From NCBI GenBank assembly GCA_000146045.2, contig BK006934.2:480001-544000 (forward strand): a stretch of DNA of 64,000 nt, in the 5' to 3' direction. Positions 45,392-63,941 of the stretch are shown piece after piece. Numbering within the stretch: the stretch's first letter is position 1; every line of letters starts with the position of its first letter. Under the pieces are notes generated by a model, which saw only the letters and a program-made list of their open reading frames with translations, did not search any database and had not been told where the DNA came from. The translations under genes were made by a program, and so were the position numbers. Source of the stretch: TPA_inf: Saccharomyces (Eukaryota).

Positions 45392-48300
45392 ATGACAATT
45401 GCACACCACTGCATATTTTTGGTAATCTTGGCCTTTCTGGCACTAATTAATGTGGCCTCAGGAGCCACAGAGGCGTGCTTACCAGCAGGCCAGAGGAAAA
45501 GTGGGATGAATATAAATTTTTACCAGTATTCATTGAAAGATTCCTCCACATATTCGAATGCAGCATATATGGCTTATGGATATGCCTCAAAAACCAAACT
45601 AGGTTCTGTCGGAGGACAAACTGATATTTCGATTGATTATAATATTCCCTGTGTTAGTTCATCAGGCACATTTCCTTGTCCTCAAGAAGATTCCTATGGA
45701 AACTGGGGATGCAAAGGAATGGGTGCTTGTTCTAATAGTCAAGGAATTGCATACTGGAGTACTGATTTATTTGGTTTCTATACTACCCCAACAAACGTAA
45801 CCCTAGAAATGACAGGTTATTTTTTACCACCACAGACGGGTTCTTACACGTTTTCTTTTGCAACAGTAGATGATTCTGCAATTTTATCAGTCGGTGGTAG
45901 CATTGCGTTCGAATGTTGTGCACAAGAACAACCTCCCATCACGTCGACTAACTTCACAATCAATGGTATCAAGCCATGGGATGGAAGTCTCCCTGACAAT
46001 ATCACAGGGACTGTCTACATGTATGCAGGCTACTATTATCCGCTGAAGGTTGTTTACTCCAATGCCGTTTCCTGGGGCACGCTTCCAATTAGCGTGGAAT
46101 TGCCTGATGGTACTACTGTTAGTGATAACTTTGAAGGGTACGTTTACTCTTTTGACGATGACCTAAGTCAGTCAAATTGTACTATCCCTGATCCTTCAAT
46201 ACATACTACTAGCACTATCACAACTACCACCGAGCCATGGACCGGTACTTTCACTTCTACATCCACTGAGATGACCACCATCACCGATACTAACGGTCAA
46301 TTAACTGATGAAACTGTCATTGTCATCAGAACTCCAACAACAGCTAGCACCATCACAACTACCACCGAGCCATGGACCGGTACTTTCACCTCTACATCCA
46401 CTGAGATGACTACTGTCACCGGTACCAACGGTCAACCAACTGACGAAACTGTTATTGTCATTAGAACTCCAACTAGTGAGGGTTTGATTACTACAACTAC
46501 CGAACCATGGACCGGTACTTTCACCTCTACATCCACTGAGATGACTACTGTGACCGGTACCAACGGTCAACCAACTGACGAAACTGTTATTGTCATTAGA
46601 ACTCCAACTAGTGAGGGTTTGATTACTACAACTACCGAACCATGGACCGGTACTTTCACCTCTACATCCACTGAGGTTACCACCATCACTGGTACCAACG
46701 GTCAACCAACTGACGAAACCGTGATTGTCATTAGAACTCCAACTAGTGAGGGTTTGATTACTACAACTACCGAACCATGGACCGGTACTTTCACCTCTAC
46801 ATCTACTGAGATGACTACTGTCACCGGTACCAACGGTCAACCAACTGACGAAACTGTTATTGTTATCAGAACTCCAACCAGTGAAGGTCTAATCAGCACC
46901 ACCACTGAACCATGGACTGGTACTTTCACCTCTACATCTACTGAGGTTACCACCATCACTGGTACCAACGGTCAACCAACTGACGAAACCGTGATTGTCA
47001 TTAGAACTCCAACTAGTGAGGGTTTGATTACTACAACTACCGAACCATGGACCGGAACTTTCACCTCTACATCCACTGAGATGACTACTGTGACCGGTAC
47101 CAACGGTCAACCAACTGACGAAACTGTTATTGTCATTAGAACTCCAACTAGTGAGGGTTTGATTACTAGAACTACCGAACCATGGACTGGTACTTTCACT
47201 TCTACATCTACTGAGGTTACCACCATCACCGGTACCAACGGTCAACCAACTGACGAAACTGTTATTGTCATCAGAACTCCAACTACTGCCATCTCATCCA
47301 GTTTGTCATCTTCTTCAGGACAAATCACCAGCTCTATCACGTCTTCGCGTCCAATTATTACCCCATTCTATCCTAGCAATGGAACTTCTGTGATTTCCTC
47401 CTCAGTAATTTCTTCTTCAGTCACTTCTTCTCTAGTCACCTCTTCTTCATTCATTTCTTCCTCTGTCATTTCTTCTTCTACAACAACCTCCACTTCTATA
47501 TTCTCTGAATCATCTACATCATCCGTCATTCCAACCAGTAGTTCCACCTCTGGTTCTTCTGAGAGCAAAACGAGTTCGGCTAGTTCTTCCTCTTCTTCCT
47601 CTTCTATCTCTTCTGAATCACCAAAGTCTCCTACAAATTCTTCTTCATCATTACCACCTGTTACCAGTGCGACAACAGGCCAGGAAACTGCTTCTTCATT
47701 ACCACCTGCTACCACTACAAAAACGAGCGAACAAACCACTTTGGTTACCGTGACATCCTGCGAATCTCATGTGTGTACTGAATCCATCTCCTCTGCTATT
47801 GTTTCCACGGCCACCGTTACTGTTAGCGGCGTCACAACAGAGTATACCACGTGGTGCCCTATTTCTACCACAGAGACAACAAAGCAAACCAAGGGGACAA
47901 CAGAGCAAACCAAGGGGACAACAGAGCAAACCACAGAAACAACAAAACAAACCACAGTAGTTACAATTTCTTCTTGTGAATCTGACATATGCTCTAAGAC
48001 TGCTTCTCCAGCCATTGTGTCTACAAGCACTGCTACTATTAACGGCGTTACCACAGAATACACAACATGGTGTCCTATTTCCACCACAGAATCGAAGCAA
48101 CAAACTACGCTAGTTACTGTTACTTCCTGCGAATCTGGTGTGTGTTCCGAAACTACTTCACCTGCCATTGTTTCGACGGCCACGGCTACTGTGAATGATG
48201 TTGTTACGGTCTATCCTACATGGAGACCACAGACTACGAATGAACAGTCTGTCAGCTCTAAAATGAACAGTGCTACCAGTGAGACAACTACCAATACTGG

Positions 48301-48619
48301 GGCTGCTGAGACAAAAACAGCAGTCACCTCTTCACTTTCAAGATTCAATCACGCTGAAACACAGACAGCTTCCGCGACCGATGTGATTGGTCACAGCAGT
48401 AGTGTTGTTTCTGTATCCGAAACTGGCAACACCATGAGTCTAACAAGTTCCGGGTTGAGCACTATGTCGCAACAGCCTCGTAGCACACCAGCAAGTAGCA
48501 TGGTAGGATCTAGTACAGCTTCTTTAGAAATTTCAACGTATGCTGGCAGTGCCAACAGCTTACTGGCCGGTAGTGGTTTAAGTGTCTTCATTGCGTCCTT
48601 ATTGCTGGCAATTATTTAA
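45392..48619 (+). CDS. FLO5: Flocculin (lectin-like cell-wall adhesin), 1075 aa
   Basis: It has a signal peptide, an N-terminal PA14/Flo lectin domain, and 8 tandem 45-aa Thr-rich repeats. A Ser-rich region follows, then three Cys-containing ~50-aa repeats, then a C-terminal GPI signal. Position next to YHR210C and the length argue for FLO5 rather than FLO1 or FLO9. Confidence 0.9.
46207..47286 (+). repeat. 8 x 135-bp near-identical tandem repeats inside FLO5 (45-aa unit [44 protein letters not shown])
   Basis: The CCATGG landmark recurs with an exact 135-bp period, for example 46235 and 46370. Copies differ by only a few substitutions. Confidence 0.9.
47716..48240 (+). repeat. Three ~150-bp Cys-containing repeats ([10 protein letters not shown]..CxE..[29 protein letters not shown]) in the FLO5 C-terminal region. 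Embedded in it is a short 21-bp repeat ([10 protein letters not shown]) at about 47869..47950.
   Basis: Seen directly in the FLO5 translation and in the DNA. Confidence 0.8.
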
Positions 48620-59150: not shown

Positions 59151-59747
59151 ATGACAGGTTACTTTTTACCACCACAAACAAGTTCTTACACGTTCAGGTT
59201 TGCTAAGGTCGATGACTCTGCAATTCTATCAGTCGGTGGTAACGTTGCGTTCGAATGTTGTGCACAAGAACAACCTCCAATTACATCGACGGATTTTACA
59301 ATCAATGGTATTAAGCCATGGCAAGGAAGTTTGCCTGATAACATCGGAGGGACTGTCTACATGTATGCAGGCTACTATTATCCGCTGAAGGTTGTTTACT
59401 CCAATGCCGTTTCCTGGGGCACGCTTCCAATTAGCGTGGAATTGCCTGATGGTACTACTGTTAGTGATGACTTTGAAGGGTACGTTTACTCTTTTGACGA
59501 TGATTTAAGTCAGTCAAATTGTACTATCCCTGATCCTTCAAAACATACTACTAGCATCGTCACAACTACTACCGAACTGTGGACTGGTACTTTTACTTCT
59601 ACATCTACTGAAATGACCACCGTCACCGGTACTAATGGTCAACCAACTGACGAAACCGTTATTGTTGCCAAAGCTCCAACCACTGCCACCTCATCCAGTT
59701 TGTCATCATCTTCTTCAGAACAAATCACCAGCTCTATCACGTCTTAG
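59151..59747 (+). pseudogene. YHR213W: 198-aa internal fragment ORF of the FLO pseudogene (S288C YHR213W-like)
   Basis: [30 protein letters not shown]... is near-identical to the FLO5 PA14 C-terminal half plus one A repeat. Confidence 0.6.
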
Positions 59748-61286: not shown

Positions 61287-61650
61287 TTGGCCAATTGCTT
61301 ATGTGTTGGTCTGCAAATTAGCACCTCGTTCCCTGTTGGCAAACGCGCGCGTACAAGCCTTACAGGGCTTGAGAATGTTCTTCGTAGAAATGCATGCACA
61401 AAAATTTTGATCTAGCACACCATCGGTCTCTGTAGCTTCGGGCTCTATAGCTATGGGTTAGGAGTCCGTGAGTAGTAACAAGAAGAAGTATATAAAAAGC
61501 AGGTAAATCGTACTTCAATATGCTTCATTGTCACTGGATCGTCATATTCACTCTTGTTCTCATAATAGCAGTCCAAGTTTTCATCTTTGCAAGCTTTACT
61601 ATTTCTTTCTTTTTATTGGTAAACTCTCGCCCATTACAAAAAAAAAAGAG

Positions 61651-62262
61651 ATGTTCAATCGTTTTAACAAATTCCAAGCTGCTGTCGCTTTGGCCCTACT
61701 CTCTCGCGGCGCTCTCGGTGACTCTTACACCAATAGCACCTCCTCCGCAGACTTGAGTTCTATCACTTCCGTCTCGTCAGCTAGTGCAAGTGCCACCGCT
61801 TCCGACTCACTTTCTTCCAGTGACGGTACCGTTTATTTGCCATCCACAACAATTAGCGGTGATCTCACAGTTACTGGTAAAGTAATTGCAACCGAGGCCG
61901 TGGAAGTCGCTGCCGGTGGTAAGTTGACTTTACTTGACGGTGAAAAATACGTCTTCTCATCTGATCTAAAAGTTCACGGTGATTTGGTTGTCGAAAAGTC
62001 TGAAGCAAGCTACGAAGGTACCGCCTTCGACGTTTCTGGTGAGACTTTTGAAGTTTCCGGTAACTTCAGTGCTGAAGAAACTGGCGCTGTCTCCGCATCT
62101 ATCTATTCATTCACACCTAGCTCGTTCAAGAGCAGCGGTGACATTTCTTTGAGTTTGTCAAAGGCCAAGAAGGGTGAAGTCACCTTTTCTCCATACTCTA
62201 ACGCTGGTACCTTTTCTTTGTCAAATGCTATTCTCAACGGTGGTTCTGTTTCCGGTTTGTAA
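61651..62262 (+). CDS. YHR214W: 203-aa secreted protein, the N-terminal part of a Ser/Thr-rich GPI cell-wall protein. It is truncated by an in-frame TAA
   Basis: The ATG is at 61651, inside the TTG-extended track ORF. It has a signal peptide MFNRFNKFQAAVALALLSRGALG and a TATATAAA box at 61489..61496. It ends at TAA 62260..62262. Confidence 0.7.
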   Translation: MFNRFNKFQAAVALALLSRGALGDSYTNSTSSADLSSITSVSSASASATASDSLSSSDGTVYLPSTTISGDLTVTGKVIATEAVEVAAGGKLTLLDGEKYVFSSDLKVHGDLVVEKSEASYEGTAFDVSGETFEVSGNFSAEETGAVSASIYSFTPSSFKSSGDISLSLSKAKKGEVTFSPYSNAGTFSLSNAILNGGSVSGL

Positions 62263-63546
62263 CGTAGAGACGACGATGAAGGCTCTGTAAATAACGGTGA
62301 AATCAACCTAGACAATGGAAGTACCTATGTTATCGTTGAACCAGTTTCTGGAAACGGTACAATCAACATCGTCTCTGGTAACCTATACTTGCACTACCCT
62401 GACACCTTTACTGGCCAAACTGTTGTATTCAAGGGTGAAGGTGTTCTTGCCGTTGACCCAACCGAAACCAACGCCACTCCTATTCCTGTTGTTGGCTACA
62501 CCGGTAAGAACCAAATTGCCATTACCGCTGACATCACTGCTCTTTCTTACGACGGTACTACTGGTGTCTTAACTGCAACCCAAGGTAACAGACAATTCTC
62601 TTTTGAAATTGGTACTGGATTCTCTAGTTCTGGCTTCAGTGTCTCCGAAGGAATCTTCGCAGGCGCCTACTCATATTACCTAAACTATGACGGTGTCATC
62701 GCTACAAGCGCCGCATCCACATCCGCATCCACTACCTCTGGTGTTGTCTCTACTGCCACTGGTTCAGTCACTTTATCCTCTAACGCTTCTACCACCGTCT
62801 CTTCTACGATCTCTTCTAGCGCCCCAGACTCAATAATTCCTTCATCTAGCGCCTCCATCTCTGGTGTCTCAAACTCCACTACAGCATCTGGTTCAATCGC
62901 TTCTACTGCTTCCACCGCTTCCACTACTTCTACTGCATCCGCTGCATCCGCCACCAGCTTCACCTCAGGTTCCGCTTCTGTCTACACTACTACATTAACT
63001 TACTTGAATGCCACAAGTACAGTCGTGGTTTCCTGTTCAGAAACAACCGACGCTAGCGGTAACATTTACACCATTACCACAACTGTCCCATGCTCATCTA
63101 CCACTGCCACCATCACATCTTGTGACGAAAACGGATGCCATGTTCCAGCACCAACTGCTACCGACGCAACTGCAACCGTTTCCTCCAAATCATACACCAC
63201 TGTTACTGTTACTCACTGTGACAACAATGGCTGTAACACCAAGACTGTCACTTCTGAATGTTCTAAAGAAACTGCAGCAACCACCATTTCTCCAAAATCA
63301 TACACTACTGTTACCGTTACTCACTGTGACGACAACGGCTGTAACACCAAGACTGTCACTTCCGAGGCTTCCAAACAAACATCATTGGCCACTAGCACAG
63401 TCACCAAGTCTGCTGCTCCAACTTCTCATACTGCTGCTTCCAGCACCTTCACTGGTATTGTCGTTCAATCCGAAGGTATGGCTGCTGGTTTGAGAACCAA
63501 TGCTTTAAGTACTTTGGCAGGTATTTTCATCCTTGCTTTTTTTTAA
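62263..63546 (+). pseudogene. In-frame continuation of YHR214W, with no ATG, encoding 427 further codons. These comprise a Ser/Thr-rich region, 2 x 37-aa Cys repeats ([24 protein letters not shown]) and a C-terminal GPI-attachment signal ([23 protein letters not shown])
   Basis: The frame is open from 62263 to TAA 63544..63546 and is the same frame as YHR214W, since 62389 minus 61651 equals 738, which is 3 x 246. The track reports it as 62389..63546 with a TTG start. Confidence 0.65.
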
Positions 63547-63627
63547 AATGAGTGCGTAACCGTACTTTCCTAAAAATAACTAAGTAGAAAGTATTTTAAT
63601 ATATAAACGTGAGATATATGTGGGTAA

Positions 63628-63941
63628 TTAGATAATTGTTGGGATTCCATTGTTGATAAAGGCTATAATATTAGGTATACAGAATATACTAGAAGTTCTC
63701 CTCGAGGATATAGGAATCCTCAAAATGGAATCTATATTTCTACATACTAATATTACGATTATTCCTCATTCCGTTTTATATGTTTCATTATCCTATTACA
63801 TTATCAATCCTTGCACTTCAGCTTCCTCTAACCTCGATGACAGCTTCTCATAACTTATGTCATCATCTTAACACCGTATATGATAATATATTGATAATAT
63901 AACTATTAGTTGATAGACGATAGTGGATTTTTATTCCAACA
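63628..63941 (-). mobile_element. Ty1/Ty2-type delta LTR in minus orientation, the 3' LTR of a full element
   Basis: The reverse complement matches the delta consensus from TGTTGGAATA (ending at 63941) through ...GGAATCCCAACAATTATCT. Confidence 0.85.

What the first reader, a model, noticed from the sequence alone, without database searches (positions are those of the whole stretch)
61651..63546. YHR214W is a GPI cell-wall protein gene split by a single in-frame TAA; the downstream 385-codon ORF is its intact C-terminal half
The 203-aa ORF has a signal peptide and ends at TAA 62260..62262. Reading on in the same frame gives 427 further sense codons with no ATG. These comprise a Ser/Thr-rich region, two tandem 37-aa Cys repeats, and a C-terminal hydrophobic tail preceded by small residues, which is a classic GPI-attachment signal. 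The stop position was checked by hand. An N-terminal secretion signal plus a C-terminal GPI signal in one frame is hard to explain unless this was a single gene of ~630 aa. It must be either recently inactivated or read through. In some other frame a 161-aa ORF (63008..63493) overlaps it and looks spurious.
Basis: seen in the sequence. Interest (0 to 1): 0.55.

Follow-up and report, generated by a model that had tools for sequence, protein, structure and literature searches.

The report
Nonsense-split yeast cell-wall protein gene
The 203-codon ORF YHR214W and the 427 codons after it are one 631-codon cell-wall protein gene of the Hpf1/Css1/Awa1 family, cut by a single C-to-T change (CAA to TAA); many other yeast strains and sister species have the gene intact, so this is an ordinary strain-level gene inactivation that mainly corrects the annotation.

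Summary
ATG 61651, TAA 62260-62262 and 427 further in-frame sense codons to TAA 63544-63546 are all present. An open run of that length has a chance probability of about 1e-8.

The interpretation also holds. One Pfam domain (Hyphal_reg_CWP) is cut by the stop. Intact proteins of 631-638 aa exist in many S. cerevisiae strains, S. paradoxus and S. uvarum. They carry Gln (CAA) at codon 204; an S. kudriavzevii-type copy carries Glu. The nearest intact alleles differ from the window by the stop, 16-18 synonymous changes and one amino acid.

The restored protein has these parts:
- a signal peptide;
- a beta-rich A-domain whose best structural matches are the Candida glabrata Awp1/Awp3b adhesin domains;
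- a Ser/Thr-rich stalk;
- two 36-aa Cys repeats;
- a strong GPI-type tail.

The stop allele is a common polymorphism found at both the chromosome I and chromosome VIII copies. It is most likely a young inactivation. Programmed read-through is unlikely: the stop is not conserved and the context is poor. Low-level leakage is not excluded.

The overlapping 161-aa ORF (YHR214W-A) is a wrong-frame artefact. This is an ordinary kind of event, of modest interest.

The parts
61489..61497 (+). TATA-like element (TATATAAAA) about 155 nt upstream of the ATG
   Evidence: Read directly from the sequence. Its function is inferred, not tested.
61651..62262 (+). Annotated ORF YHR214W: 203 codons plus the premature TAA. 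It is the 5' third of the ancestral gene.
   Evidence: The product is identical to YAR066W NP_009430.1. Pfam PF11765 profile positions 11-145 of 328 match it.
61651..61719 (+). Signal peptide, 23 residues (MFNRFNKFQAAVALALLSRGALG, then DS)
   Evidence: Basic n-region, hydrophobic core with mean Kyte-Doolittle (KD) hydropathy 2.1, and A-x-G before the cleavage site. PMC4508530 reports a 23-aa signal for YAR066W, whose full 203-aa product is identical to this ORF's, and shows that its first 105 aa drive secretion of fusion proteins.
61804..62700 (+). A-domain (residues ~52-350), Hyphal_reg_CWP / Awp1-like beta-rich fold, interrupted at codon 204
   Evidence: Pfam matches on both sides of the stop: profile 11-145 and 162-307. 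The AlphaFold model of the intact allele P0001 has all-beta elements from residue 52 to 346 (pLDDT from about 50 to 91) and a low-confidence loop at 199-210. The Foldseek top hits are the Awp3b and Awp1 A-domains, E 3e-9 to 3e-6.
62260..62262 (+). Premature stop TAA (codon 204). The ancestral codon is CAA (Gln), so the change is a single C-to-T transition at 62260.
   Evidence: CAA in intact S. cerevisiae alleles L001, L002 and L016-L020 and in S. paradoxus L003. Gln or Glu at this position in every homologue that reads through it. TAA in 9 and TGA in 1 of 10 other stop-bearing loci.
62263..63546 (+). In-frame continuation: 427 sense codons plus the ancestral stop. It is the untranslated (or rarely translated) 3' two-thirds of the gene.
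   Evidence: dN/dS against S. paradoxus is 0.13, and 0.046 against the intact allele L001. The fraction of optimal codons is 0.76 in this frame and 0.31 and 0.50 in the other two frames.
62701..62985 (+). Ser/Thr/Ala-rich stalk (residues 351-445), including a 9-nt tandem repeat that varies in length between alleles
   Evidence: Composition. Tandem Repeats Finder array at 62899-62949. In-frame 9-nt indel relative to L001.
63166..63380 (+). Two tandem 108-nt (36-aa) Cys-containing repeats (...[24 protein letters not shown]...)
   Evidence: the repeat finder family D1, 83% identity. Similarity to Pfam Flocculin_t3 is only weak (E 0.03, below the curated cutoff).
63454..63543 (+). C-terminal GPI-attachment-type signal (residues 602-631). 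Candidate omega sites are G602, S607 and A611. The hydrophobic tail is ALSTLAGIFILAFF.
   Evidence: Pattern match; the last 10-14 residues have mean KD hydropathy 2.2-2.8. The tail is conserved in orthologues. Attachment was not tested experimentally.
63008..63493 (+). Annotated ORF YHR214W-A (161 aa), in the +2 frame of the real gene. It is a spurious overlapping ORF.
   Evidence: Exact match to the YHR214W-A entry. dN/dS in this frame is 1.4-2.1, against 0.15-0.20 for the main frame over the same bases. Stops interrupt it in S. uvarum and the S. kudriavzevii-type copy. Its fraction of optimal codons is 0.28, against 0.78 for the main frame.
63610..63941 (-). Ty1 3' LTR, with the polypurine tract GGGTGGTA to its right. 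It is inserted 64 nt after the gene's stop codon.
   Evidence: Homology to seven other loci ends exactly 64 nt after the stop. LTR ends TGTTGG...TCTCA and the polypurine tract were found. The Ty1 identity rests on my knowledge of the LTR sequence.

Best explanation
The window carries a null or truncating allele of one ancestral gene of about 631 codons.

The intact gene encodes a secreted, probably GPI-anchored cell-wall mannoprotein of the Hpf1/Css1/Awa1 group. This group belongs to the Hyr/Iff/Awp1 superfamily. From N- to C-terminus the protein has:
- a 23-aa signal peptide;
- an Awp1-like beta-rich A-domain (residues ~52-350);
- a Ser/Thr-rich, presumably O-mannosylated stalk;
- a Cys-containing repeat region;
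- a GPI-attachment signal.

A single C-to-T transition at 62260 changed Gln204 (CAA) to TAA in the middle of the A-domain.

Shown:
- one gene, one frame, one point mutation;
- the intact allele exists in many strains and in sister species;
- the stop allele is common and sits at both the chromosome I (YAR066W) and chromosome VIII (YHR214W) copies;
- the 3' part has no further disabling lesion.

Inferred:
- Ribosomes stop at codon 204. The product is then a signal-peptide-bearing fragment of about 180 aa holding half an A-domain, with no stalk and no true GPI signal. It cannot be wall-anchored in the native way.
- The mRNA, with about 1.3 kb of untranslated ORF after the stop, should be a target of nonsense-mediated decay (NMD).
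- At most a small fraction of ribosomes read through to make full-length protein.
- The inactivation is young, because the downstream frame, its codon bias and its protein sequence are still essentially ancestral.
For: 1. Pfam PF11765 matches profile positions 11-145 before the stop and 162-307 after it. One domain is cut in two.
2. Eighty-six homologues were found. P0001 is 99% identical over 100% of the query and represents a cluster of 104 sequences. S. paradoxus SPAR_A00820, S. uvarum and an S. kudriavzevii-type copy are contiguous across the site.
3. At the DNA level, codon 204 is CAA in L001, L002, L003 and L016-L020.
4. Nearest intact alleles:
   - Kyokai-7 type (L016-L018): 20 nt differences, made up of the stop, 18 synonymous and 1 non-synonymous;
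   - HLJ1 (L019, L020): 18 nt differences, made up of the stop, 16 synonymous and 1 non-synonymous.
5. dN/dS against S. paradoxus is 0.038 upstream and 0.129 downstream of the stop.
6. Ten further stop-bearing loci lie on contigs of chromosome I and chromosome VIII size. The exact 203-aa product is seen on 407 contigs.
7. Downstream of the stop, variants restricted to stop alleles are 6 non-synonymous to 3 synonymous. Variants private to intact alleles are 2 to 8, and variants fixed in the stop class are 0 to 6. Fisher p = 0.07 and 0.01.
8. The structure model plus Foldseek point to the Awp3b/Awp1 A-domains over about 330 aligned columns.
9. GPI pattern and hydropathy. The true tail has mean KD hydropathy 2.2-2.8. 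The tail of the 203-aa product has only 0.7-1.0.
10. The YAR066W leader is experimentally secretion-competent (PMC4508530).
11. YHR214W, YHR214W-A and HPF1 all appear among the top 50 genes down-regulated in mucin medium (PMC8527512).
Against: - No expression, ribosome-profiling or protein data for this allele could be examined, so 'terminates at codon 204' is an inference.
- The downstream frame is intact in all nine interpretable stop-bearing loci (a tenth, L005, is an assembly-gap chimera). This is also what selection on a read-through product would give.
- The base after the stop is C, the leakiest +4 base in yeast according to the Bonetti data tabulated in PMC4615788.
- The relaxed-constraint signal is weak. 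Counts are small and one locus (L007) supplies 4 of the 6 non-synonymous changes.
- The stop loci were fetched by exact match to the 203-aa product, so no upstream comparison is possible.
- One low-score peptide of 'Yar066W' was reported from purified cell walls (PMC6162559). I do not know that strain's allele.
Confidence: 0.87

Rival explanations
1. Functional stop-codon read-through. The TAA is a leaky or regulated stop, for example enhanced in [PSI+] cells. The locus would then make mostly a short secreted protein and, conditionally, the full-length GPI-anchored wall protein.
For: - +4 C after the stop. C is the leakiest +4 base in yeast in the table in PMC4615788.
- The downstream frame is open in all interpretable stop-bearing loci.
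- One locus (L011) has TGA instead of TAA, so a stop is kept.
- The stop allele is common and sits at both paralogous loci.
Against: - The stop is not conserved. Every orthologue and paralogue has Gln or Glu at this position.
- UAA is the tightest stop (PMC4615788).
- The 3' hexamer CGUAGA lacks the CA(A/G) core of the yeast read-through consensus. The two bases before the stop are U and G, not A and A. The consensus is recalled from Namy et al. 2001; the upstream-A rule is.
- Two of the three possible transitions in TAA give another stop, so the TGA variant is expected under neutrality.
- Variants restricted to stop alleles lean non-synonymous downstream.
- The intactness of the 3' half is explained by youth. 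The allele differs from intact ones by a single amino acid.
Confidence: 0.07
2. Two or three independent genes, as in the reference annotation. YHR214W would be a genuine 203-aa GPI protein. YHR214W-A would be a separate 161-aa protein gene, with its paralogue YAR068W reported to be under positive selection.
For: - Both ORFs are named in public databases.
- The 203-aa product passes a permissive GPI pattern.
- YHR214W-A responds on arrays to zinc deficiency (PMC2535606).
- PMC1097725 cites a very high Ka/Ks for YAR068W.
Against: - The stop cuts a single domain.
- The tail of the 203-aa product is barely hydrophobic, with mean KD hydropathy 0.7-1.0.
- The YHR214W-A frame has dN/dS of 1.4-2.1. 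The overlapping main frame has 0.15-0.20. The YHR214W-A frame has 0.28 optimal codons and is broken by stops in S. uvarum and the S. kudriavzevii-type copy. The high Ka/Ks is what a wrong frame over a constrained gene produces.
- Array and RNA-seq signals for YHR214W-A are explained by one long mRNA.
Confidence: 0.03
3. Sequencing or assembly error in the window: the TAA is not real.
For: None found. A single-base difference is the kind of change an error could make.
Against: The same stop is present in 10 other independently assembled loci from different strains, including long-read assemblies. The exact 203-aa product occurs on 407 contigs. Gene models in other strains insert fake introns to skip it.
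Confidence: 0.01

Closest known systems
Hpf1 (YOL155C), Css1 (YIL169C) and Awa1 of Saccharomyces cerevisiae
   Same: The same Pfam domain (PF11765) and 57-84% identity over the A-domain, with the same conserved ...NGGSVSGLQRR... segment. Several hits are named Css1p, Hpf1p or AWA1 by their sources. PMC8746771 places Awa1, Hpf1 and Css1 in one subcluster.
   Different: This is a distinct locus, at chromosome I/VIII next to the FLO1/FLO5 and PHO11/PHO12 blocks. The protein is shorter (631 aa), its A-domain sits directly after the signal peptide, and in this window it is truncated at codon 204. PMC8746771 counts only Hpf1 and Css1 as S288C members. This gene would be a third, disabled, member present in two copies.
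Candida glabrata Awp1 / Awp3b A-domains (PDB 7O9Q, 7O9O, 7O9P)
   Same: These are the best structural matches of the model of the intact allele (Foldseek E 3e-9 to 3e-6, probability 1.00, about 330 aligned columns covering the whole target). Both are GPI wall proteins with an N-terminal beta-helix plus alpha-crystallin-like domain (PMC8746771).
   Different: Sequence identity is only 18-22%, and phmmer against PDB sequences finds nothing. TM-scores are modest (0.44-0.46 on the target) and rmsd is high, so only the fold class is supported. Adhesion has not been shown for the Saccharomyces proteins.
Candida albicans Hyr1/Iff family (the founders of PF11765)
   Same: The Pfam family is shared. 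So is the overall plan: signal peptide, A-domain, Ser/Thr-rich stalk and GPI signal (PMC8746771).
   Different: They are distant in sequence. A single-sequence search of 1.84 billion representatives finds only 22 relatives at E<=0.001. The conserved dibasic RR after position 204 is seen only in the closer relatives.
Other reference-strain ORF pairs created by one premature stop, e.g. BSC1/PRM7 (one gene, IMI1, in other strains) and the FLO8 nonsense allele of S288C (recalled from memory, not checked here)
   Same: A single nonsense mutation in the reference lineage truncates or splits a cell-surface or flocculation-related gene that is intact in other strains. The annotation then lists the pieces as separate ORFs.
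   Different: Here the stop allele is not confined to the laboratory lineage. It is widespread among sequenced strains and is present at two paralogous subtelomeric loci.

Membership tests
Hyr/Iff/Hpf1-type GPI cell-wall proteins (Pfam PF11765, InterPro IPR021031) | N-terminal Hyphal_reg_CWP domain | tested here: met
   The two halves match profile positions 11-145 (28.6 bits, cutoff 28) and 162-307 (49.3 bits). Intact alleles carry precomputed PF11765.
Hyr/Iff/Hpf1-type GPI cell-wall proteins (Pfam PF11765, InterPro IPR021031) | Cleavable N-terminal signal peptide | tested here: met
   Sequence features. Published secretion-trap result for the YAR066W leader, whose protein is identical to this ORF's product (PMC4508530).
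Hyr/Iff/Hpf1-type GPI cell-wall proteins (Pfam PF11765, InterPro IPR021031) | C-terminal GPI-attachment signal in the same reading frame | tested here: inconclusive
   The pattern and hydropathy are met in the read-through frame and in intact alleles. In this window the signal lies beyond the stop. No dedicated predictor or experiment was available.
Hyr/Iff/Hpf1-type GPI cell-wall proteins (Pfam PF11765, InterPro IPR021031) | Beta-helix plus alpha-crystallin-like A-domain fold, as in Awp1/Awp3b | tested here: met
   The AlphaFold model of P0001 is all-beta from residue 52 to 346. The top four Foldseek hits are Awp3b and Awp1. Confidence is moderate: the MSA was shallow and TM-scores are about 0.45.
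Hyr/Iff/Hpf1-type GPI cell-wall proteins (Pfam PF11765, InterPro IPR021031) | Uninterrupted ORF | tested here: not met
   TAA at codon 204 in the window. The feature is met in other strains and species. The window copy is therefore a disabled allele of a family member.
Programmed stop-codon read-through genes | Stop codon conserved in orthologues | tested here: not met
   Gln or Glu at the position in every homologue that reads through it.
Programmed stop-codon read-through genes | Read-through-promoting context (leaky stop, CA(A/G)N(U/C/G)A downstream, A at -1 and -2) | tested here: not met
   The context is GGU UUG UAA CGU AGA. Only the +4 C fits. The rules come from PMC4615788 and from memory of Namy et al. 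2001.
Programmed stop-codon read-through genes | Measured read-through or footprints downstream | not testable with these tools
   No ribosome-profiling or reporter data were accessible.
Polymorphic pseudogene / disabled ORF | Intact homologue at the orthologous position, and a single identifiable disabling lesion | tested here: met
   Syntenic intact copies lie on chromosome I and VIII sized contigs and on S. paradoxus chromosome I, with the same neighbours. The lesion is one C-to-T change.
Polymorphic pseudogene / disabled ORF | Relaxed constraint after the lesion | tested here: inconclusive
   6 non-synonymous to 3 synonymous among stop-restricted variants, against 2 to 8 and 0 to 6 in the controls. 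Counts are small and not independent.
Flocculin type 3 repeat (PF13928) | Repeat matches the Pfam model above its cutoff | tested here: not met
   E 0.03 and 15.2 bits against a cutoff of 21.9. The 36-aa Cys repeats only resemble it.

The most novel reading that the evidence does not exclude
The stop could be kept as a switch. Most ribosomes would make a short secreted N-terminal fragment ending three residues before a conserved dibasic LQRR motif. That motif is a possible Kex2 site in a flexible loop, so the fragment may mimic a natural processing product. Leaky or [PSI+]-enhanced read-through of UAA-C (UGA-C in one strain) would conditionally add the stalk and GPI anchor. This would give prion- or stress-dependent display of an adhesin-like wall protein from two subtelomeric loci.
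Probability: 0.06. Interest if true: 0.65.

Novelty: new member of a known kind. Interest (0 to 1): 0.28.

Why it matters
The value lies mainly in correcting the annotation.

- Four reference ORFs (YHR214W, YHR214W-A, YAR066W, YAR068W) are best read as two copies of one disabled Hpf1/Css1-like gene.
- The 'putative GPI protein' label on the 203-aa ORFs probably rests on a weak pseudo-signal. The real GPI signal lies 427 codons downstream.
- The very high Ka/Ks reported for YAR068W is what a wrong reading frame laid over a constrained gene produces. It is not evidence of positive selection.
- Expression, deletion and overexpression results attributed to YHR214W-A or YAR068W should be re-read as results for the 3' part of this gene.
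- Many wild, sake and wine strains carry the intact 631-aa protein. S288C-based studies therefore miss a third member of a wall-mannoprotein family linked to haze protection and foam formation. The segregating stop is a ready-made natural knockout for testing what that protein does.

Tried and rejected
- **Literature.** I searched for an explicit prior description. No searchable paper states that YHR214W/YAR066W continue into YHR214W-A/YAR068W. Wood et al. 2001 (PMC2447204) is indexed as containing all four names, but only the abstract and references could be read. Its content on these ORFs is unknown, and it may already flag them. Namy et al. 2003 (PMC154216), the screen for ORF pairs separated by one stop, is not held.
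- **PDB by sequence.** phmmer against PDB sequences gave nothing useful. The relation to Awp1/Awp3b appears only by fold.
- **Upstream versus downstream comparison.** I first meant to compare non-synonymous and synonymous variation upstream and downstream of the stop within stop alleles. I rejected this because those loci were retrieved by exact identity to the 203-aa product, so upstream amino-acid variation is zero by construction.
- **L005.** Its downstream part was discarded. It contains an assembly gap and then joins a flocculin-like C-terminus.
- **TGA variant in L011.** It was considered as evidence for selection to keep a stop. I rejected it as uninformative, because two of the three possible transitions in TAA give another stop.
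- **Tandem Repeats Finder.** It did not report the two-copy 108-nt repeat. The repeat finder did.
Full report
**Observation**

The sequence is as described. ATG is at 61651. 203 sense codons follow, then TAA at 62260-62262. Another 427 in-frame sense codons run to TAA at 63544-63546.

An open run of that length is not chance. From the local base composition its probability is about 1.5e-8. None of 20,000 shuffles stayed open. The two other forward frames of the same stretch contain 9 and 28 stops.

Three small corrections apply:
- The Cys repeat has a period of 108 nt, which is 36 aa and not 37. The copies are 63166-63272 and 63274-63380, 83% identical.
- There is one ATG downstream, at codon 610 inside the C-terminal signal.
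- The '385-codon ORF' begins at a TTG only under bacterial start rules.

The 203-aa product is identical to YAR066W of S288C. The 161-aa overlapping ORF is identical to the entry named YHR214W-A of S288C. The window is therefore the chromosome VIII copy of the chromosome I/VIII subtelomeric duplication. PMC2728529 lists the pairs YAR066W/YHR214W and YAR068W/YHR214W-A with Ks of 0.0066 and 0.

**One gene, not two**

Pfam's Hyphal_reg_CWP domain (PF11765, 328 profile positions) matches positions 11-145 in the 203-aa ORF and positions 162-307 in the continuation. The stop therefore falls inside a single domain.

I searched the conceptual read-through protein against the large protein collection and found 86 homologues. 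Many are contiguous proteins of 631-638 aa:
- P0001 is 99% identical over the full length and represents a cluster of 104 sequences from S. cerevisiae strains.
- S. paradoxus SPAR_A00820 (P0020) is 90% identical.
- S. uvarum (P0044) is 72% identical.
- An S. kudriavzevii-type copy from hybrid VIN7 (P0031) is 79% identical.

In the alignment the stop position is Gln in P0001, P0002, S. paradoxus and S. uvarum, and Glu in P0031. The segment ...NGGSVSGLQRR... is conserved across the whole Hpf1/Css1/Awa1 group. Homologues of only 23-38% identity are also contiguous through this region.

At the DNA level, codon 204 is CAA in the intact alleles L001, L002 and L016-L020 and in S. paradoxus L003. The lesion is thus one C-to-T transition at 62260.

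**How old is the lesion, and how widespread**

The closest intact alleles are nearly the same allele:
- The Kyokai-7-type chromosome VIII copy (L016-L018) differs from the window gene at 20 of 1,896 nt. These are the stop, 18 synonymous changes and one amino-acid change.
- The two identical copies in strain HLJ1, on chromosome I and chromosome VIII sized contigs (L020, L019), differ at 18 nt. These are the stop, 16 synonymous changes and one amino-acid change.

Against S. paradoxus, dN/dS is 0.038 upstream of the stop and 0.129 downstream. It is 0.062 for the rest of the A-domain. The fraction of optimal codons is 0.69 upstream and 0.76 downstream in the gene's frame (the optimal-codon list is recalled from memory). 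The 3' part therefore still looks like a constrained, well-expressed coding sequence.

The stop allele is not a laboratory oddity. The exact 203-aa product is recorded on 407 contigs. Ten other loci fetched by it come from different strains and from contigs of both chromosome I and chromosome VIII size. Nine have TAA and one (L011) has TGA. In the nine interpretable ones the downstream frame is open to the normal stop, with only in-frame length changes in the Ser/Thr repeats.

Several automated gene models in such strains remove the stop with an invented intron and are named Css1p or YIL169Cp.

Downstream of the stop the variant counts are:

| Variant class | Non-synonymous | Synonymous |
|---|---|---|
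| Restricted to a subset of stop alleles | 6 | 3 |
| Private to intact haplotypes | 2 | 8 |
| Fixed in the stop class | 0 | 6 |

Fisher p is 0.07 against the intact-private class and 0.01 against the two control classes pooled. This points to relaxed constraint after the stop arose. It is weak evidence, because one locus supplies four of the six non-synonymous changes. The stop loci were also selected by identity of the upstream product, so no upstream control is possible.

**What the intact gene encodes**

*Signal peptide.* The N-terminus is a typical signal peptide. PMC4508530 describes a 23-aa signal for YAR066W, whose full 203-aa product is identical to this ORF's, and recovered its first 105 aa in a secretion trap. 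Later toolkits use it as a secretion leader.

*A-domain.* An AlphaFold model of the intact allele P0001 was built from a shallow 20-sequence alignment, and its overall confidence is low because of the disordered stalk. The region from residue 52 to 346 is all-beta, with pLDDT from about 50 to 91. A low-confidence loop lies at 199-210, exactly where the stop and the following RR lie. Foldseek against the PDB returns the C. glabrata Awp3b and Awp1 A-domains as the only significant hits (E 3e-9 to 3e-6, about 330 aligned columns, TM about 0.45 on the target). PMC8746771 independently places Hpf1, Css1 and Awa1 in the Awp1/Hyr1 class and describes the fold as a right-handed beta-helix fused to an alpha-crystallin domain. 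The 203-aa product would hold only about half of this domain.

*Stalk, repeats and anchor.* After the domain come:
- a Ser/Thr/Ala-rich stalk (residues 351-445);
- a Thr- and Cys-rich region with the two 36-aa repeats;
- a C-terminus that fits a fungal GPI pattern. The pattern is recalled from de Groot et al. 2003. Candidate omega sites are G602, S607 and A611, and the last 10-14 residues have mean Kyte-Doolittle (KD) hydropathy of 2.2-2.8.

The truncated product also passes the permissive pattern, but its tail is barely hydrophobic (0.7-1.0). That may be why the 203-aa ORFs carry the label 'putative GPI protein'. This last point is my inference.

**Mechanism in this window**

The shown facts are the lesion, its position inside the domain and the intact state elsewhere.

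Three things are inferred:
- Translation ends at codon 204. The product is a secreted fragment of about 180 aa with no stalk or anchor.
- The mRNA is subject to nonsense-mediated decay. This follows from the general rule for premature stops followed by long untranslated stretches in yeast.
- Read-through is minor.

The case against programmed read-through is as follows. UAA is the tightest stop. The bases before it are U and G rather than A and A. The downstream hexamer CGUAGA lacks the CA(A/G) core of the yeast read-through consensus. Only the +4 C is favourable (rules from PMC4615788, and from memory of Namy et al. 2001). The stop is not conserved in any orthologue. The TGA variant in L011 is not evidence for selection, because two of the three possible transitions in TAA give another stop. 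Low-level or [PSI+]-enhanced leakage remains possible and untested.

**The overlapping ORF**

YHR214W-A (63008-63493) lies in the +2 frame of the gene. Over the same bases the main frame has dN/dS of 0.15-0.20 against S. paradoxus, the S. kudriavzevii-type copy and S. uvarum. The YHR214W-A frame has 1.4-2.1, and it is interrupted by stops in the latter two. Its fraction of optimal codons is 0.28, against 0.78 for the main frame.

This explains the statement in PMC1097725 that YAR068W has one of the highest Ka/Ks ratios in the sensu stricto group. It also explains why YHR214W, YHR214W-A and HPF1 are all strongly down-regulated in the same condition.

**Context**

The gene sits in a subtelomeric adhesin cluster:
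- a full flocculin ORF at 45392-48619;
- an N-terminally truncated PA14/GLEYA flocculin fragment at 59151-59747;
- a Ty1 element whose 3' LTR starts exactly 64 nt after the gene's stop. This insertion is absent from seven other loci.

In strains with the intact gene, the downstream neighbours include intact aminotransferase and PhyH-family genes. CEN.PK113-7D carries the BIO6 and BIO1 biotin genes at the corresponding chromosome I position (PMC3364882).

**Comparison with what is known, and verdict**

This is a disabled allele of a member of the Hpf1/Css1/Awa1 branch of the Hyr/Iff/Awp1 class of GPI wall proteins. The kind of event is well known: a premature stop in the reference lineage splits a cell-surface gene into separately annotated ORFs.

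I found no paper in the searchable library that states this for these ORFs. Two relevant older papers could not be read. Public proteomes already contain the intact protein.

I rate it as a new member of a known kind, of modest interest. Its practical value lies in correcting four reference ORF annotations.

Noticed in passing
window 63008-63493 (+): The annotated ORF YHR214W-A is in the +2 frame of the real gene. Its dN/dS is 1.4-2.1, against 0.15-0.20 for the main frame, and it is broken by stops in S. uvarum and the S. kudriavzevii-type copy. The published 'very high Ka/Ks' of its paralogue YAR068W is therefore a frame artefact.
   Followed up: yes
window 63610-63941 (-) and beyond to 64000: A Ty1 3' LTR with its adjacent polypurine tract is inserted exactly 64 nt after the gene's stop codon. 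The insertion is absent from seven other loci, including chromosome VIII of other strains. It replaces the gene's native distal 3' flank.
   Followed up: partly
L011:4610-4612 (GCA_000977355.3, chromosome VIII sized contig): One stop-bearing strain has TGA instead of TAA at codon 204, a second mutation within the stop codon. This is expected fairly often under neutrality, but TGA-C is the leakiest stop context.
   Followed up: partly
window 62257-62271 (residues L203-Q204-R205-R206-D207 of the restored protein): A dibasic RR directly follows the stop position. It is invariant in 20 Saccharomyces family members, and RR or KK is present in the nearer distant homologues. It lies in a low-confidence loop of the model. 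It may be a Kex2 processing site, in which case the 203-aa product would resemble a natural N-terminal fragment.
   Followed up: partly
P0008, P0009, P0010, P0016, P0022, P0027, P0030, P0045, P0068: Public gene models from other strains (named Css1p, YIL169Cp or 'hypothetical protein') lack 6-30 residues around position 204. Annotation pipelines apparently invented introns to skip the stop.
   Followed up: partly
window 59151-59747 (+): This 198-aa ORF matches PA14 only from profile position 50 onwards, plus GLEYA and one flocculin repeat. It is an N-terminally truncated flocculin fragment 1.9 kb upstream. The same ORF is 337-390 aa in some other strains (L007, L009). It is a second disabled adhesin gene in the cluster.
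   Followed up: partly
L008 and L009 (GCA_029990865.1, contig CANCLM010000001.1); L019 and L020 (GCA_903819155.2): Copy number and location vary. One strain has stop-bearing copies near both ends of a chromosome I sized contig. Another has identical intact copies on chromosome I and chromosome VIII sized contigs. This suggests concerted evolution or gene conversion between the subtelomeric copies.
   Followed up: no
P0093 (203 aa, strain CFC): A 203-aa truncated variant differs from the window product at 7 residues. Its first 203 residues are closest to those of intact 631-aa alleles P0109 and P0111 (4 differences). The stop thus sits on more than one sequence background, through recombination, gene conversion or recurrence.
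   Followed up: partly
L016-L018:6793-9713; L003:8870-11832: Downstream of the intact gene, Kyokai-7-type strains and S. paradoxus carry intact aminotransferase (Aminotran_3) and PhyH-family genes. CEN.PK113-7D carries the BIO6 and BIO1 biotin genes at the corresponding chromosome I position. Several stop-bearing loci show only a 60-aa PhyH remnant there.
   Followed up: no
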